From positions 5,606 through 69,605 of IMG/VR virus record IMGVR_UViG_3300029543_000205: a stretch of 64,000 nucleotides of DNA; one strand, given 5' to 3'. The translations under genes were made by a program, and so were the position numbers. This DNA is from a virus (Duplodnaviria > Heunggongvirae > Uroviricota > Caudoviricetes). Shown here one piece after another: positions 21,852-25,332 of this stretch. The notes beneath the pieces were generated by a model. It saw only the letters and a list, made by a program, of their open reading frames with translations, was not told the DNA's origin and did no database searches. Numbering within the stretch: the first letter of the stretch is position 1; each line of letters starts with the position of its first letter.

Positions 21852-22202
21852 CTACCTCTTTTTCATTCCGCGGACGGTATGTTTCTTTTTGTTTCCCATG
21901 AATCTTCCACTGCCCTTTGAACCGCCGAATATGAAAGCAGACATATTGCCGCCGGATGGTTTCTGCGTGGCCGGTTTAAAATCTGTCTGTGTGTTTTCCT
22001 CCATAGGACGTAATGATGGCGTTTCGGGTTTATACTGAGGTCTCCACACCATGACAATCTTGTTCTCTTTAGGATCGACAAATCCAATCCCATTTTCAAA
22101 GATAGTAAGATTAAGTCCATGCCGGATGCAGGCCTCTTCGATTTCTTTCTGTACCTCAACTGCTTTTTTCTGTGCTTCTGTCATACCATTTTCTCCTTTC
22201 AT
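21852..22202 (-). CDS. hypothetical basic protein
   Basis: 116-aa ORF, 4-bp overlap with kinase gene end. Confidence 0.4.
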   Translation of the reverse strand: MKGENGMTEAQKKAVEVQKEIEEACIRHGLNLTIFENGIGFVDPKENKIVMVWRPQYKPETPSLRPMEENTQTDFKPATQKPSGGNMSAFIFGGSKGSGRFMGNKKKHTVRGMKKR

Positions 22203-23929
22203 CGTACAGTTCTCCCAAGTCTATAAATATTTTCATCATTGATGATTGTAAATGCTGTGGAATCTTTGATTAAACAGCTATCCGGCGATACGGCTTCACA
22301 CTCAAAATCTTTAAATGCCTGTTTCTGGTACGAATATATTCTGATATTCCCATCAATAGGTATTGAGATATTGGAGTTATAAAAGCATACATTGCCAAGT
22401 CCACATTGATATTTAATGCGATCCTCGCTATACGCCACTCCATGTTCATTGCACACAAAGGTAAAGAACTGTCCGGCTCCGTTTTCCAACACGATAAGCC
22501 ATCCTCCGGTTATTTTATCTCTGTGTATTCCATAATTATTCACGGTATCAGTATATGGTATCTCAATGTTTTTCCCATCCAGATTAACAATGAGGTTTTC
22601 TGCAAATCTACTCACAACGCACGAATGTCCCTCAGATACCGCAAAGTAACTCTCATATCCACATTTTGTAATCGTCCGTATTCCGTTTCCTGATTTTGTG
22701 ATCTGAATGGAGGTTAATGTATTGGCAGGACTTATGAAGTATACTGAATCTCCTGCCACATAAATCGGACTCTTGTATTTCTTATCAAACACATATTCTC
22801 TATCCGTGGTAAACCAGAACGCTCTACCATCCGCTTTTATTACAATATTCTCTGTTCCAACCTCTGCAAAATGATATTTAATTCCGCTTTCGTATGCGAA
22901 TTTATTCCCATTCTTAACTTCCACTACTTCTCCTGCATTATTGATATAGCACTGCTCATTTAGAACAATTTTTACATCGTTTCCTTTGAGCATCGTGATA
23001 AGTGTAAGTCCTCCTGTTACCCCTTGTGATACCGGCTTAGTAAGAACATTTGCATTATTATCGCATAGCGGGCAGCGAGTATATTTGCCATAATAGAACT
23101 CCTGGTGTACATCGCAGAATTTAAGGTGCTTTGCCATGTGTTTTAATTCATCCCCAATCGACCGGCTCTTATTCTCAAAGATCTTTTTCAGAGAATCAAT
23201 CAGATAGGGAGATAAATTTTTCCACGGTTTAATCGTTCTTGGTATTTTTACTTTTGGATTGTCTATTACGCATATTCCTCGTTTCATACGTTCTACAATA
23301 TCCATATCTGGTGTCATGGTTCCACCATGCGGATGAATCCTTGTAAGGGTTTTCCAAATCAAAATTGCCTCTGCGTATGTGTCTGTTTCCTCCGAAAAAT
23401 CATTCCCTTTCATCAATGGATCTTTGAATAAGTCCATACAGACTTCGCATTTTTCATCTTCCACGCTCCAACTATCACAATCTATAAAGTACACATTTCC
23501 AGTTTTGTCAAAGAGAATGTTCTGATCGTTCAGATCCCCAATACACACCCCGGCAGAATGTATATCTCTCACGGTATCCTGTATCTTTACGAGTATTTCC
23601 AAAATATCTTTCGTGGTTATCCCATTCGCTTTCAGATATTTTTTACTTGTGAGGACTCTTACTTCCTCTCCTACGGCCTTTGGCATGATGTAGCCAATAA
23701 ACTTATTGCTGTTATCATACACTGCCGTAATAGGTTTAATAGCCTCCTTTGGCAACCGTTTATCAATAAGCATGGCAACTTTCTTTTCCTTGGCTGCAAT
23801 ATCAACGCAAGGTTTGTAAATTTTCAGAATGTCGTTGCCATACTCATAGATATATCCCTCTCCTCCCTCCGTTATGGGAGTAAGCTGTCTTATCTTTTCT
23901 TTTCCTATCCTCGTTAGTGCCATTTTCAT
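22199..23929 (-). CDS. Ser/Thr protein kinase with C-terminal Zn-ribbon/beta-rich domain (TerY-P triad kinase-like)
   Basis: N-terminal kinase fold: HSAGVCIGDLNDQNILF (catalytic loop) and FIDCDSW (DFG-equivalent); CPLCD zinc ribbon. Confidence 0.65.
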   Translation of the reverse strand: MKMALTRIGKEKIRQLTPITEGGEGYIYEYGNDILKIYKPCVDIAAKEKKVAMLIDKRLPKEAIKPITAVYDNSNKFIGYIMPKAVGEEVRVLTSKKYLKANGITTKDILEILVKIQDTVRDIHSAGVCIGDLNDQNILFDKTGNVYFIDCDSWSVEDEKCEVCMDLFKDPLMKGNDFSEETDTYAEAILIWKTLTRIHPHGGTMTPDMDIVERMKRGICVIDNPKVKIPRTIKPWKNLSPYLIDSLKKIFENKSRSIGDELKHMAKHLKFCDVHQEFYYGKYTRCPLCDNNANVLTKPVSQGVTGGLTLITMLKGNDVKIVLNEQCYINNAGEVVEVKNGNKFAYESGIKYHFAEVGTENIVIKADGRAFWFTTDREYVFDKKYKSPIYVAGDSVYFISPANTLTSIQITKSGNGIRTITKCGYESYFAVSEGHSCVVSRFAENLIVNLDGKNIEIPYTDTVNNYGIHRDKITGGWLIVLENGAGQFFTFVCNEHGVAYSEDRIKYQCGLGNVCFYNSNISIPIDGNIRIYSYQKQAFKDFECEAVSPDSCLIKDSTAFTIINDENIYRLGRTVR

Positions 23930-23938
23930 AATGCCCTC

Positions 23939-24625
23939 CTACAATACGATTGTTGTATCATCCTGGAATACCCTCTGGTGTTTGTTTATAAACCTCTTTA
24001 CTCTTACTTCCTTGCCACTCTGCAGGGCTTCCGTAAATTCTTTCTTAAATTGTTCATCTTTCATGGCGAATCGTATTCCATCAGATGCTACACCAATATT
24101 CCTATATTCATCTTTCGGAAAAGCCTTTGTGGAAAAATTGACACCATCTTTGTACTGTTTGAGCATATCTTTATCCACATAATTGTAGGCAAAGTATTTC
24201 GGGTATTCTCCGTCAGATAGTTCTTCAAACTCAATCGTTCCGTCCAGACGTTCTTTCACGATAAAACCATCTCCACAGTAATCTACCATGAAATGTGTCT
24301 CATTTTCAGTAACCATAAGGATCGTAAAACAAAGGAAATCTCTGATTGAGCCGGAAGTCTGCCCGAATAGACCAAGTATCTCTCCAAAAGCGGCTGCGGC
24401 AGTATATACACTACATTCATGTATAATTCTGCTGTCATTTTTCAAAAGATGGCAAAACGCTTTTGCTCCAACTTCCGAATGTTTCCCCTCCGAACAGCCA
24501 TCGCAAACAACTTTCATCCCATCAAATTCAATTCCGTAGTCCTGGCAATTCGTACCGTAGTCGATATGTTGCTGACCGATTTTATTTATAACCATTGTAT
24601 TTCCTCCCACAAAAAAGAACGGCAA
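23939..24625 (-). CDS. PP2C-family protein phosphatase (TerY-P triad phosphatase-like)
   Basis: NCQDYG...VVCDGCSEGKHSEVGAKAF and VASDGI motifs match PP2C metal-binding signatures. Confidence 0.6.
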   Translation of the reverse strand: MPFFFVGGNTMVINKIGQQHIDYGTNCQDYGIEFDGMKVVCDGCSEGKHSEVGAKAFCHLLKNDSRIIHECSVYTAAAAFGEILGLFGQTSGSIRDFLCFTILMVTENETHFMVDYCGDGFIVKERLDGTIEFEELSDGEYPKYFAYNYVDKDMLKQYKDGVNFSTKAFPKDEYRNIGVASDGIRFAMKDEQFKKEFTEALQSGKEVRVKRFINKHQRVFQDDTTIVL

Positions 24626-24657
24626 CCCATTTTAGGATCGCCGTTCTACTCTCATTT

Positions 24658-25332
24658 TTATACGTCAAAAAAATCATCCTGTTTCGATACGGCACTCTTG
24701 GAGTTTTCAATCACTGATTTTGATAAGCAGTTGAAAGCTCTTCTGAGTTCTGATGCAGAACTGCTTACATCGAGGATATTCTTGAATCCAAGGTCTTTCG
24801 CCTCCTGTGTTGCCTGTCCTCCGAAACTGATAAACGCAGTAACGATTTCTTCCACGTTCAGATACTCTACCGCTTTCTTTGCCTTTGCAAACCCTCCGGG
24901 CTGAGAAGAGTTATCCATCCCATCTCCGAAAATTGCAAACACGGCCTTTACTCTCATTCCCTCATTTTTGAGGAAGTCTCTGTACTCTTTCAACTTCTCA
25001 GTTCCATCAATGATCGTATCGTACATAGCTGTGCATCCATCGGTACTATACGAAGTGTCAAACTCTGTAATGCGCTTATAGCCTCCTACGATTGCACTAT
25101 CAGAGAAGTCTGCTCTTGCAACCAGAATCTCGTCACATTCCTTGGAATTGATAAGCGCATCTTTGAAATCTGAAAGAGCTTTTACCATATCTCTTTCATA
25201 CATTCCCATAGAACCTGACTTGTCGATTCCGACAAAAATCAAATTGATGTTCTCACTGTCAATTTCATCAATAGAGGTATTTGCGATCTCAACCTCATCT
25301 AATCCGTCAATTACCTGTTCTGTTTCATTCAT
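24658..25332 (-). CDS. von Willebrand factor A domain protein (TerY-like)
   Basis: MIDAS motif LIFVGIDKSGSMG; 224 aa; first gene of vWA-PP2C-kinase triad. Confidence 0.65.
   Translation of the reverse strand: MNETEQVIDGLDEVEIANTSIDEIDSENINLIFVGIDKSGSMGMYERDMVKALSDFKDALINSKECDEILVARADFSDSAIVGGYKRITEFDTSYSTDGCTAMYDTIIDGTEKLKEYRDFLKNEGMRVKAVFAIFGDGMDNSSQPGGFAKAKKAVEYLNVEEIVTAFISFGGQATQEAKDLGFKNILDVSSSASELRRAFNCLSKSVIENSKSAVSKQDDFFDV

What the first reader, a model, noticed from the sequence alone, without database searches (positions are those of the whole stretch)
22199..25332. Phage-borne vWA / PP2C phosphatase / Ser-Thr kinase triad (TerY-P-like) inside the tRNA-rich insertion
Three co-directional, tightly spaced genes encode a MIDAS-containing vWA protein, a PP2C-type phosphatase and a eukaryotic-like Ser/Thr kinase with a C-terminal Zn-ribbon/beta-rich extension. 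This gene order matches the described TerY-P triad, which has been reported as an antiviral defence system. On a phage it would act as a superinfection-exclusion or signalling module. It sits next to a second vWA protein (26316-27794) and an isochorismatase/nicotinamidase-like hydrolase.
Basis: partly seen in the sequence, partly recalled or inferred. Interest (0 to 1): 0.7.

Follow-up and report, generated by a model that had tools for sequence, protein, structure and literature searches.

The report
Phage nicotinamidase cassette with kinase switch
The vWA / PP2C phosphatase / Ser-Thr kinase trio is real and built like the known TerY-P (E. coli YegL-PphC-YegI) triads, but wherever it could be checked it travels with a nicotinamidase-like enzyme as a four-gene cassette that gut Lachnospiraceae co-regulate with NAD salvage genes and that several phages have captured, so it more likely manipulates nicotinamide/NAD+ than acts as a classic defence system.

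Summary
Observation confirmed. On the minus strand lie a MIDAS-containing vWA protein (24658-25332), a PP2C_2 phosphatase (23939-24595, start corrected) and a Hanks-type kinase with a zinc ribbon and an orphan all-beta domain (22199-23929). The architecture matches TerY-P. The kinase hits E. coli YegI (1e-13), and the vWA family hits YegL-type vWA by profile comparison (E 6e-6).

The interpretation needs revision. The upstream nicotinamidase-like gene (25345-26253) is not a neighbour but a fourth member. In every locus with a full-length kinase relative whose contig extends far enough (phage, prophage and bacterial chromosome), the order is nicotinamidase-vWA-PP2C-kinase. This holds down to 23-24% identity in the kinase beta domain. 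The amidase is the best-conserved part and keeps all nicotinamidase catalytic and metal residues.

In Lachnospiraceae chromosomes the cassette promoter carries the same palindromic operator as the adjacent pncA-prs-pncB-nadE operon, and NrtR (ADP-ribose-responsive) regulator genes are often adjacent. Phage copies have lost the operator. They sit in the tRNA-rich accessory block between terL and portal. Natural deletion variants lacking the triad exist.

Best reading: a phosphorylation-gated nicotinamidase module that phages captured to steer nicotinamide/NAD+ salvage. A defence or exclusion role is not excluded. It is a new variant of a known kind.

The parts
25345..26253 (-). NIC302: nicotinamidase-family (isochorismatase-fold) amidase, 302 aa. 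It is the first gene of the four-gene cassette and its best-conserved member.
   Evidence: The only PDB profile hits are nicotinamidases: 29iv 1.5e-5, 1ilw/1im5 1e-3 and yeast Pnc1 2h0r 3e-3. NCBIfam PncA gives 7e-8, below its cut-off. Invariant residues are D51 (GIDVQQDF), D93-x-H95, W157-x-x-H160-C, K194 (VKG) and C240 (GEAKSHCV). It is 70-82% identical where the kinase is 43-51%. It is present in every cassette whose upstream region could be examined.
24658..25332 (-). vWA protein with a complete MIDAS motif, of YegL/TerY type, 224 aa. It has an invariant acidic-aromatic C-terminal tail (DDFF).
   Evidence: AF2 model plus Foldseek: all 50 listed hits are vWA / integrin I / MIDAS domains, best E 2e-8. 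D37xS39xS41, T101 and D137 are invariant. hhalign against the YegL-type alignment gives 85% probability, E 5.9e-6, over 178 columns. JGI names some homologues 'YegL'.
24616..24647 (-). Terminator-like hairpin (13-bp stem followed by a T-run) between the vWA stop codon and the PP2C start codon.
   Evidence: It is specific to this phage clade; in bacterial copies the two genes abut or overlap. Any function as an attenuator is inferred only.
23939..24595 (-). PP2C_2-family Ser/Thr phosphatase, 218 aa (start corrected to ATG 24595).
   Evidence: PF13672 at 42.5 bits against a cut-off of 24. The catalytic Asp motifs are conserved with E. coli PphC. The RBS GGGAGG lies upstream of the ATG.
22199..23929 (-). 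Hanks-type Ser/Thr kinase (aa 1-262), zinc ribbon (aa ~268-296) and orphan all-beta C-terminal domain (aa ~300-576).
   Evidence: BLASTP against E. coli YegI gives 1e-13. The C-terminal domain has no Pfam or PDB sequence hit. It occurs in only 76 representative clusters among 1.84e9 proteins, almost always in this same architecture. It evolves faster than the kinase domain (45% against 60% mean identity).
26316..27794 (-). DUF2828 + DUF7788 + VWA_2 protein (phrog_850, 'RNA-binding protein'). It is a phage-specific upstream neighbour and not part of the universal cassette.
   Evidence: It lies near the cassette in both phage lineages but is absent from the bacterial chromosomal copies.

Best explanation
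The three genes are a genuine vWA-PP2C-kinase(ZnR) signalling triad of the TerY-P / YegL-PphC-YegI kind. They are the regulatory part of a conserved four-gene cassette whose enzymatic member is the nicotinamidase-family amidase encoded immediately upstream (25345-26253).

Shown: the cassette order amidase-vWA-PP2C-kinase is kept across phages, prophages and Lachnospiraceae chromosomes. The amidase retains the full nicotinamidase catalytic triad and metal site. In many bacterial chromosomes the cassette promoter carries the same palindromic operator as the neighbouring pncA-prs-pncB-nadE (Preiss-Handler) operon, and NrtR-type ADP-ribose-responsive repressor genes lie alongside. The phage copies lack that operator and sit in an accessory block co-oriented with late genes.

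Inferred: the amidase converts nicotinamide (or a close nicotinamide-containing metabolite) to the acid form, which feeds or gates NAD+ salvage. The kinase senses a ligand through its fast-evolving C-terminal beta domain and phosphorylates the vWA adaptor and/or the amidase. The PP2C resets the switch. The vWA MIDAS site and its invariant C-terminal DDFF tail mediate assembly of the complex. Phages captured the whole cassette and express it during infection to steer the host nicotinamide/NAD+ pool in their favour, for example by recycling nicotinamide released by NAD+-cleaving immunity through the host PncB-NadE route.
For: Triad identity. The TerY-P definition in the literature, including the ZnR-fused kinase.

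Obligate four-gene unit: only the four gene clusters are universal (18/18, 18/18, 18/18 and 17/18 loci) across at least 8 different flanking contexts. Distant members L098 and L099, with the kinase beta domain at 23-24% identity, still have the amidase (36% and 63%), and L098 has the vWA at 31%.

Amidase is nicotinamidase-type. JGI names homologues 'nicotinamidase-related amidase'.

NAD link: the pattern TATCR-N5-ATAATA has exact matches in 699 kb of bacterial loci (L059-L097) only just upstream of the cassette, just upstream of the NAD operon, and upstream of an nrtR-cassette operon in L089. That operon holds PncB (433 bits against a cut-off of 405), NadE (771 against 473) and an NrtR-like repressor. 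True NrtR genes (NUDIX + NrtR_WHD) directly flank the cassette in L074 and L088, with further NrtR-like genes by tblastn in L086 and L089. Published NrtR sites are 21-bp palindromes that overlap promoters and respond to ADP-ribose (PMC2330246).

Phage copy: it has no operator (0 exact matches in the window; upstream regions). It lies between terL and portal. The number of sigma-70-like promoter matches in the region does not exceed chance. Deletion variants L055-57 lose the triad but keep the amidase intact, which fits an accessory role.
Against: There is no experimental evidence for nicotinamidase activity, for any kinase substrate, or for any phenotype. NCBIfam and Pfam scores for the amidase are below the curated cut-offs. 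The protein has a 45-aa N-terminal extension and an insertion of about 60 aa. The bacterial genomes already encode a small PncA-like amidase in the salvage operon, so the true substrate may differ. The operator is assigned to NrtR by adjacency only, and the distant cassettes L098 and L099 lack it. Known phage NAD+ reconstitution pathways (NARP1-3) do not use a nicotinamidase. TerY-P-like triads have been reported as defence systems, and removing nicotinamide could equally serve a defensive purpose. Expression timing on the phage is inferred from orientation only.
Confidence: 0.5

Rival explanations
1. One reading: a TerY-P-type anti-phage defence or superinfection-exclusion system. The triad senses an incoming phage. 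In an updated form of this view the nicotinamidase is its effector: it removes nicotinamide so that competing phages cannot rebuild NAD+ by the nicotinamide-dependent NARP routes, or it relieves product inhibition of NADase immunity.
For: The architecture matches TerY-P, and TerY-P-like modules have been reported as stand-alone defence systems. The kinase's weak PADLOC hits are to defence kinases (mad6, MkoA, PD-T4-6, Stk2). The fast-evolving C-terminal domain fits a sensor in an arms race. The cassette is carried by a phage whose 97%-identical copy lies within a 355-kb Diplocloster hominis contig. It is accessory and occasionally deleted. An ADP-ribose-responsive operator would induce it when NAD+ is being cleaved.
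Against: No PADLOC model matches the vWA or the PP2C. The defence-validated version has an OB fold rather than a ZnR plus beta domain. The chromosomal copies are syntenic across several Lachnospiraceae species beside housekeeping NAD genes, not in variable defence islands. On the phage there is no independent promoter, and the genes run in the same direction as the late genes. The amidase is under very strong purifying selection, which is unusual for a conflict effector.
Confidence: 0.22
2. A host-takeover or general signalling triad whose substrates are unrelated to NAD. The kinase would phosphorylate host or phage proteins such as translation or RNA-repair factors. The amidase would be linked for another reason, for example hydrolysis of a different amide, or a role as scaffold only.
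For: In phages the cassette lies in a tRNA/RNA-repair neighbourhood: a DUF2828 'RNA-binding' protein, an RtcB in the window, and Thg1-like and RNA-ligase genes in the L043 clade. TerY-P triads are associated with predicted RNA-targeting systems, and the ZnR is suggested to bind nucleic acid. The amidase scores below the curated nicotinamidase cut-offs and carries large insertions.
Against: The RNA-repair neighbours are absent from all bacterial copies, whereas the amidase is constant. The shared operator with pncB-nadE and the NrtR adjacency point specifically to NAD. The nicotinamidase-specific metal and catalytic motifs are invariant.
Confidence: 0.18
3. A non-functional passenger: a piece of host chromosome picked up by the phage and drifting.
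For: Deletion variants exist, and the cassette clearly has bacterial chromosomal counterparts.
Against: All four ORFs are intact with invariant catalytic residues in more than 40 phage contigs at 96-100% protein identity. They are also intact in at least two further phage lineages at 50-66% identity. This shows long-term purifying selection on phage genomes.
Confidence: 0.03

Closest known systems
TerY-P (TerY-phosphorylation) triad, as described by Anantharaman et al. 2012 and summarised in PMC11090510
   Same: A TerY/YegL-type vWA with a MIDAS site, a PP2C phosphatase and a Ser/Thr kinase fused at its C-terminus to a zinc ribbon. The genes are co-directional and tightly linked, in the order vWA-PP2C-kinase.
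   Different: Here the triad is always preceded by a nicotinamidase-family amidase. The kinase carries an extra orphan beta domain of about 275 aa after the zinc ribbon. The genomic associations are NAD salvage genes and NrtR (in bacteria) or tRNA/RNA-repair genes (in phages), not Ter genes, McrBC/CoCoNuT systems or DNA-processing modules.
E. coli YegL - PphC (YegK) - YegI
   Same: The kinase domains are homologous (BLASTP 1e-13, 25% identity over about 200 aa). Both phosphatases belong to PF13672. The vWA families match by profile comparison. The gene order and the sizes of the vWA and PP2C proteins are the same. YegI kinase activity is demonstrated (bioRxiv 10.1101/819920); PphC was characterised as a PP2C-like phosphatase (title of bioRxiv 10.1101/303594, not read here).
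   Different: [quoted passage not shown] E. coli has yegJ inserted on the opposite strand and no amidase gene. The vWA shows no pairwise similarity to YegL.
Gao et al. 2020 TerY-P defence system (represented in PADLOC/DefenseFinder)
   Same: A three-gene vWA / PP2C / kinase module, found on mobile or accessory DNA.
   Different: According to PMC11090510 the kinase of the validated system is fused to an OB fold. No PADLOC model matches the vWA or the PP2C here. No anti-phage phenotype has been tested.
PncA / Pnc1 nicotinamidases
   Same: An Asp-Lys-Cys catalytic triad, a D-x-H ... W-x-x-H-C metal site and an isochorismatase fold. In bacteria the gene is co-regulated with pncB-nadE.
   Different: 302 aa against about 180-215 aa: a 45-aa N-terminal extension and an insertion of about 60 aa. 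It scores below the family cut-offs. It is genetically coupled to a kinase/phosphatase/vWA switch. A separate small PncA-like gene exists in the same genomes.
Phage NAD+ reconstitution pathways NARP1, NARP2 and NARP3
   Same: Phage-borne enzymes that act on NAD+ breakdown products or precursors. They provide a plausible rationale for countering NAD+-depleting immunity.
   Different: No gene is shared. The NARP pathways use Adps/Namat, NAMPT/NMNAT or PnuC/NadR, and none uses a nicotinamidase or a phospho-switch. A role of the present cassette in NAD+ restoration is an untested inference.

Membership tests
TerY-P triad (architectural definition) | vWA protein of TerY/YegL type with a MIDAS motif | tested here: met
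   Fold match; invariant MIDAS residues; hhalign against the YegL-type profile, E 5.9e-6, 178 columns. Pairwise BLAST and Pfam are negative.
TerY-P triad (architectural definition) | PP2C-family phosphatase adjacent to the vWA gene | tested here: met
   PF13672 at 42.5 bits, above the cut-off of 24; catalytic Asp motifs shared with PphC.
TerY-P triad (architectural definition) | Ser/Thr kinase fused at its C-terminus to a zinc ribbon | tested here: met
TerY-P triad (architectural definition) | Association with Ter genes, McrBC/CoCoNuT or DNA-processing/restriction modules | tested here: not met
   Among the neighbours identified (by homology to reference proteins for all loci, and by Pfam for a sample), none is a Ter, McrBC or restriction gene. 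Those identified are NAD salvage/NrtR genes, housekeeping genes, phage structural genes or RNA-repair genes. Many variable flanking genes were not annotated.
Gao-2020 TerY-P defence system | Profile match to the defence-system models (PADLOC) | tested here: not met
   No PADLOC hit for the vWA or the PP2C; the kinase hits only mad6, MkoA, PD-T4-6 and Stk2. Caveat: E. coli YegL/PphC/YegI are also not recognised.
Gao-2020 TerY-P defence system | Kinase fused to an OB fold; measurable anti-phage protection | not testable with these tools
   The OB-fold statement comes from PMC11090510. The model shows a ZnR plus an all-beta domain of about 29 strands whose fold could not be isolated, because kinases dominated all fold-search output. 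A phenotype needs an experiment.
YegI-like kinase family | Sequence homology of the kinase domain to E. coli YegI | tested here: met
   BLASTP 1e-13 over aa 5-203. More distant hits from the kinase pattern scan (L094-L097) are flanked by YegL and, in L095/L096, PphC homologues.
Nicotinamidase (PncA/Pnc1) | Catalytic Asp-Lys-Cys triad and D-x-H ... H metal site in an isochorismatase fold | tested here: met
   D51, K194, C240, D93, H95 and H160 are invariant. They align to nicotinamidase structures, which are the only PDB hits.
Nicotinamidase (PncA/Pnc1) | Score above the curated family cut-off | tested here: not met
   NCBIfam PRK11609 at 32.5 bits against a cut-off of 174; Pfam Isochorismatase at 16.8 against 27.
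Nicotinamidase (PncA/Pnc1) | Hydrolysis of nicotinamide to nicotinate | not testable with these tools
   Requires an enzyme assay.
NrtR regulon (bacterial copies only) | Palindromic operator overlapping the promoter, shared with NAD genes, with nrtR nearby | tested here: met
   properties of published NrtR sites. Binding by NrtR itself was not tested. The phage copy lacks the operator.
Phage NAD+ reconstitution pathways (NARP1-3) | Presence of the Adps/Namat, NAMPT/NMNAT or PnuC/NadR-like gene pairs | tested here: not met
   None of the proteins scanned (the eight ORFs between 21350 and 28216 and the largest ORFs elsewhere in the window) matched such families. Most small ORFs in the window were not scanned.

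The most novel reading that the evidence does not exclude
The cassette is a previously unrecognised, phosphorylation-gated nicotinamidase system at the centre of the NAD+ conflict between phages and bacteria. In hosts an ADP-ribose-sensing repressor induces it when NAD+ is being cleaved. Phages have captured it as a fourth kind of NAD+-directed counter-measure, routing nicotinamide through the Preiss-Handler pathway. Alternatively, prophages use it to starve competitors of nicotinamide. The TerY-P-type triad would be the sensor and switch. If so, this would give the first concrete output for a TerY-P-like triad.
Probability: 0.3. Interest if true: 0.85.

Novelty: new variant of a known kind. 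Interest (0 to 1): 0.62.

Why it matters
TerY-P / YegL-PphC-YegI triads are widespread, but in the literature I could read they have no known substrate or output. Here a triad of that design is genetically tied to one identifiable enzyme across its whole family. In bacteria it is also tied to a defined regulon, Preiss-Handler NAD+ salvage under an NrtR-type operator. That makes the question of what such a triad controls directly testable: amidase assays with and without kinase or phosphatase, and NAD+/nicotinamide metabolomics. NAD+ depletion is a major anti-phage strategy, and the known phage counter-pathways (NARP1-3) all start from nicotinamide, ADP-ribose or nicotinamide riboside. A phage-borne regulated nicotinamidase, abundant in human-gut Lachnospiraceae phages, could therefore be a new player on either side of that conflict.

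Tried and rejected
(1) PADLOC scan for TerY-P models: negative for my proteins. It is also negative for the E. coli YegL/PphC/YegI control, so I treat it as uninformative rather than as a refutation.

(2) Sequence-only detection of the vWA (Pfam, NCBIfam, PDB profile, BLAST against YegL) failed. Only the structure model and a richer profile-profile comparison worked.

(4) Literature searches for a nicotinamidase linked to vWA, TerY or a kinase, or used by phages against NAD+ depletion, found nothing relevant. The exceptions are an unstudied PncA-like ORF in megaphage G and NARP3, which uses PnuC/NadR.

(5) The operator pattern in the window: no exact match. With one mismatch there are 7 matches against 3 expected (4 of 100 shuffles reach 7), none near the cassette, so I reject operator retention on the phage.

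(6) The idea that the cassette's NAD adjacency is a one-off: rejected. The operator, NrtR genes or both recur in several different arrangements.

(7) The original Anantharaman 2012 paper is not in the searchable library, so the TerY-P definition is taken second-hand from PMC11090510 and PMC4978471.
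Full report
OBSERVATION. The minus strand carries three closely spaced ORFs at the stated coordinates.

The 224-aa product of 24658-25332 has no Pfam, NCBIfam or PDB sequence hit. Its AlphaFold2 model (pLDDT 77) matches only vWA / integrin-I / MIDAS domains in the PDB: all 50 listed hits, best E 2e-8. The MIDAS residues D37-x-S39-x-S41, T101 and D137 are invariant in the family.

The next ORF is a PP2C_2 phosphatase (PF13672, 42.5 bits against a cut-off of 24). Its metal-binding Asp motifs are shared with E. 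coli PphC. Its real start is ATG 24595, behind a GGGAGG ribosome-binding site. The TTG at 24625 lies inside a terminator-like hairpin at 24616-24647.

The genes lie in a 12.7-kb accessory block between the large terminase (33297-34943, phrog_38) and the portal gene, flanked by 2 and 11 tRNA genes.

RELATION TO KNOWN TRIADS. The literature describes TerY-P as a TerY-like vWA, a PP2C and an STK fused at its C-terminus to a zinc ribbon. A variant with an OB fold has been validated as a defence system (PMC11090510). From my own knowledge I chose E. coli K-12 yegL-pphC-(yegJ)-yegI as a studied example of the same vWA-PP2C-kinase gene order, and I fetched it. The window kinase matches YegI at 1e-13. 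Both phosphatases are PP2C_2. The vWA family matches an alignment of YegL-type proteins over 178 columns, which include the MIDAS motifs and the C-terminal F-x-x-LS-x-S helix (85% probability, E 5.9e-6). More distant hits from the kinase pattern scan (L094-L097) are flanked by YegL and, in two of them, PphC homologues. PADLOC recognises none of my three proteins as TerY-P, but it also fails on the E. coli proteins. The triad is therefore architecturally TerY-P-like, and its kinase is homologous to that of the E. coli triad.

THE UNIT IS FOUR GENES. IMG/VR holds 42 near-identical loci (96-99% kinase identity) and a second phage lineage at about 50% with unrelated flanks. A scan of GTDB species genomes found 34 loci, almost all in Lachnospiraceae. 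One is a 97%-identical copy, with the same phage flanks, on a 355-kb contig of Diplocloster hominis CSJ-3.

In every locus that holds a full-length kinase homologue and enough sequence, the order is 302-aa amidase, vWA, PP2C, kinase. An all-against-all clustering of neighbours in 18 loci shows that only these four gene families are universal, across at least eight different flanking contexts. The amidase is the most conserved member: 70-82% identity where the kinase is 43-51%.

An exhaustive search with the kinase C-terminal domain found only 76 representative clusters in 1.84 billion proteins, nearly all with the same architecture. Two of the most distant members (23-24% identity) still sit in the same kind of cassette. 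L098 has the amidase at 36%, the vWA at 31% and a PP2C_2 protein. L099 has the amidase at 63%, a 225-aa ORF in the vWA position and a PP2C_2 protein.

THE AMIDASE. Its only PDB sequence relatives are nicotinamidases. The catalytic triad D51/K194/C240 and the metal ligands D93, H95 and H160 (in the nicotinamidase-typical W-x-x-H-C-x-Q-x-T-x-G-A motif) are invariant. It is longer than PncA, with an N-terminal extension and an insertion of about 60 aa, and it scores below the curated cut-offs. The bacterial genomes also carry a small PncA-like gene. Its exact substrate is therefore an open point.

LINK TO NAD SALVAGE. In several Lachnospiraceae species the cassette lies beside an operon encoding a small amidase, a Prs-like protein, PncB (433 bits against 405), NadE (771 against 473) and an NrtR-type ADPR-responsive repressor. 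In other genomes a true NrtR gene (NUDIX + NrtR_WHD) directly follows the kinase (L074, L088; L086 by tblastn) or precedes the amidase (L089).

The cassette promoter and the NAD operon promoter carry the same palindrome, CTTATTATCAAATAnATAATAAG, overlapping the -35 and -10 elements. In 699 kb of bacterial loci, the derived pattern TATCR-N5-ATAATA matches exactly only at these promoters and upstream of the nrtR-cassette operon in L089. This matches the published properties of NrtR sites: 21-bp palindromes that overlap promoters and release the repressor on ADP-ribose (PMC2330246).

The window has no exact match, and the phage loci lack the motif upstream of the amidase gene. There the cassette follows the DUF2828 gene after a 62-nt spacer and runs in the same direction as the late genes. 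The number of promoter-like sites in the region does not exceed chance.

DISPENSABILITY. Three contigs (L055-57) carry a 2,283-bp deletion, window 24950 to 22667. It truncates the vWA gene out of frame and removes the PP2C gene and kinase residues 1 to about 420, while leaving the amidase and DUF2828 genes intact. L037 lacks the amidase gene. The module is accessory, yet it is otherwise under clear purifying selection in at least three phage lineages.

MECHANISM.
Shown: domain identities, intact catalytic sites, the obligate four-gene linkage, co-regulation with Preiss-Handler genes in bacteria, loss of that control on phages, and faster evolution of the kinase C-terminal domain (45% against 60% mean identity).
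Inferred: the amidase acts on nicotinamide or a close derivative, and the kinase/PP2C pair gates it through the vWA adaptor. The invariant but disordered DDFF tail of the vWA protein and its MIDAS site are candidate docking elements. Phages use the cassette during lytic growth to steer the nicotinamide/NAD+ pool, plausibly to recover NAD+ after NADase-type immunity via host PncB-NadE.

I put this at about 0.5. A general signalling role unrelated to NAD is about 0.2. A drifting passenger is unlikely.

NOVELTY. TerY-P-like triads, YegI/PphC and nicotinamidases are all known. In the literature I could search, their obligate coupling into one cassette, its membership of an NAD regulon and its capture by gut phages are not described. 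NARP1-3 use different enzymes. I rate it a new variant of a known kind, of moderate to high interest because it offers a concrete, testable output for a TerY-P-type switch.

LIMITS. There are no experiments. The fold of the kinase C-terminal domain is unresolved. The operator-NrtR assignment rests on adjacency. Phage expression timing is inferred from gene orientation. The original TerY-P paper could not be read.

Noticed in passing
window 26316-27794 (-); also L043:2825-3979 and L059:7524-9017: The 'second vWA protein' is a DUF2828 + DUF7788 + VWA_2 protein that matches phrog_850 ('RNA-binding protein', E 7e-133). It lies upstream of the cassette in both phage lineages but never in the bacterial chromosomal copies. 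Together with RtcB (51491-52696), and with the Thg1-like and RNA-ligase genes in the L043 clade, it suggests an RNA/tRNA-repair module next to the tRNA array.
   Followed up: partly
window 30525-30598 (-) and 28404-28522 (-): ARAGORN calls a 'tRNA-???' with a four-base anticodon (acca) that Rfam does not report at its gathering score. Conversely, Rfam reports a 119-nt tRNA-like match (41.9 bits) at 28404-28522 that ARAGORN does not call; it may contain an intron or be a tRNA-like RNA.
   Followed up: no
window 24616-24647 (-): A strong terminator-like hairpin (13-bp stem plus a T-run) lies between the vWA stop codon and the PP2C start codon. It could make the amidase and vWA genes more highly expressed than the PP2C and kinase genes. 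It is absent from the bacterial copies, where the genes abut or overlap.
   Followed up: partly
L055-L057 (window 22667-24950 deleted); L037 (window 25284-26287 deleted); L031 (window 26948-28885 deleted): Natural deletion variants of the same phage remove, respectively, the triad, the amidase gene, or orf82 plus part of the DUF2828 gene. The whole block is a hot spot of gene loss.
   Followed up: yes
L060:7647-7662 and 13168-13241; the same motif in L068-L074, L079, L082-L084 and L086-L091: A palindromic operator, CTTATTATCAAATAnATAATAAG, is shared by the cassette promoter and the pncA-prs-pncB-nadE promoter. It is a candidate NrtR box for Lachnospiraceae.
   Followed up: yes
L080:4851-11659: In this copy, which is probably on a phage, the four cassette genes are separated by inserted ORFs: an AP2-domain protein, a ThyX thymidylate synthase and a methyltransferase-like ORF. 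The gene order is kept. The L043 clade has a 321-aa phrog_29668 ORF between the PP2C and kinase genes, much as yegJ sits in the E. coli triad.
   Followed up: partly
L082:5229-11529, L083, L085: In three bacterial loci a MoxR-like AAA_5 ATPase and three large ORFs directly follow the kinase gene. This may be a separate vWA-MoxR-type system.
   Followed up: no
window 31490-32485 (-): An SPFH/Band-7 protein (phrog_200, 'lipoprotein') is embedded in the tRNA array and is present in only some of the near-identical relatives.
   Followed up: no
window ~44000-54000: GC and AT skew reverse sign and the genes switch to the plus strand. This segment includes an FtsK/SpoIIIE-like ATPase (48622-49908) and RtcB (51491-52696), forming a divergently transcribed module.
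   Followed up: no
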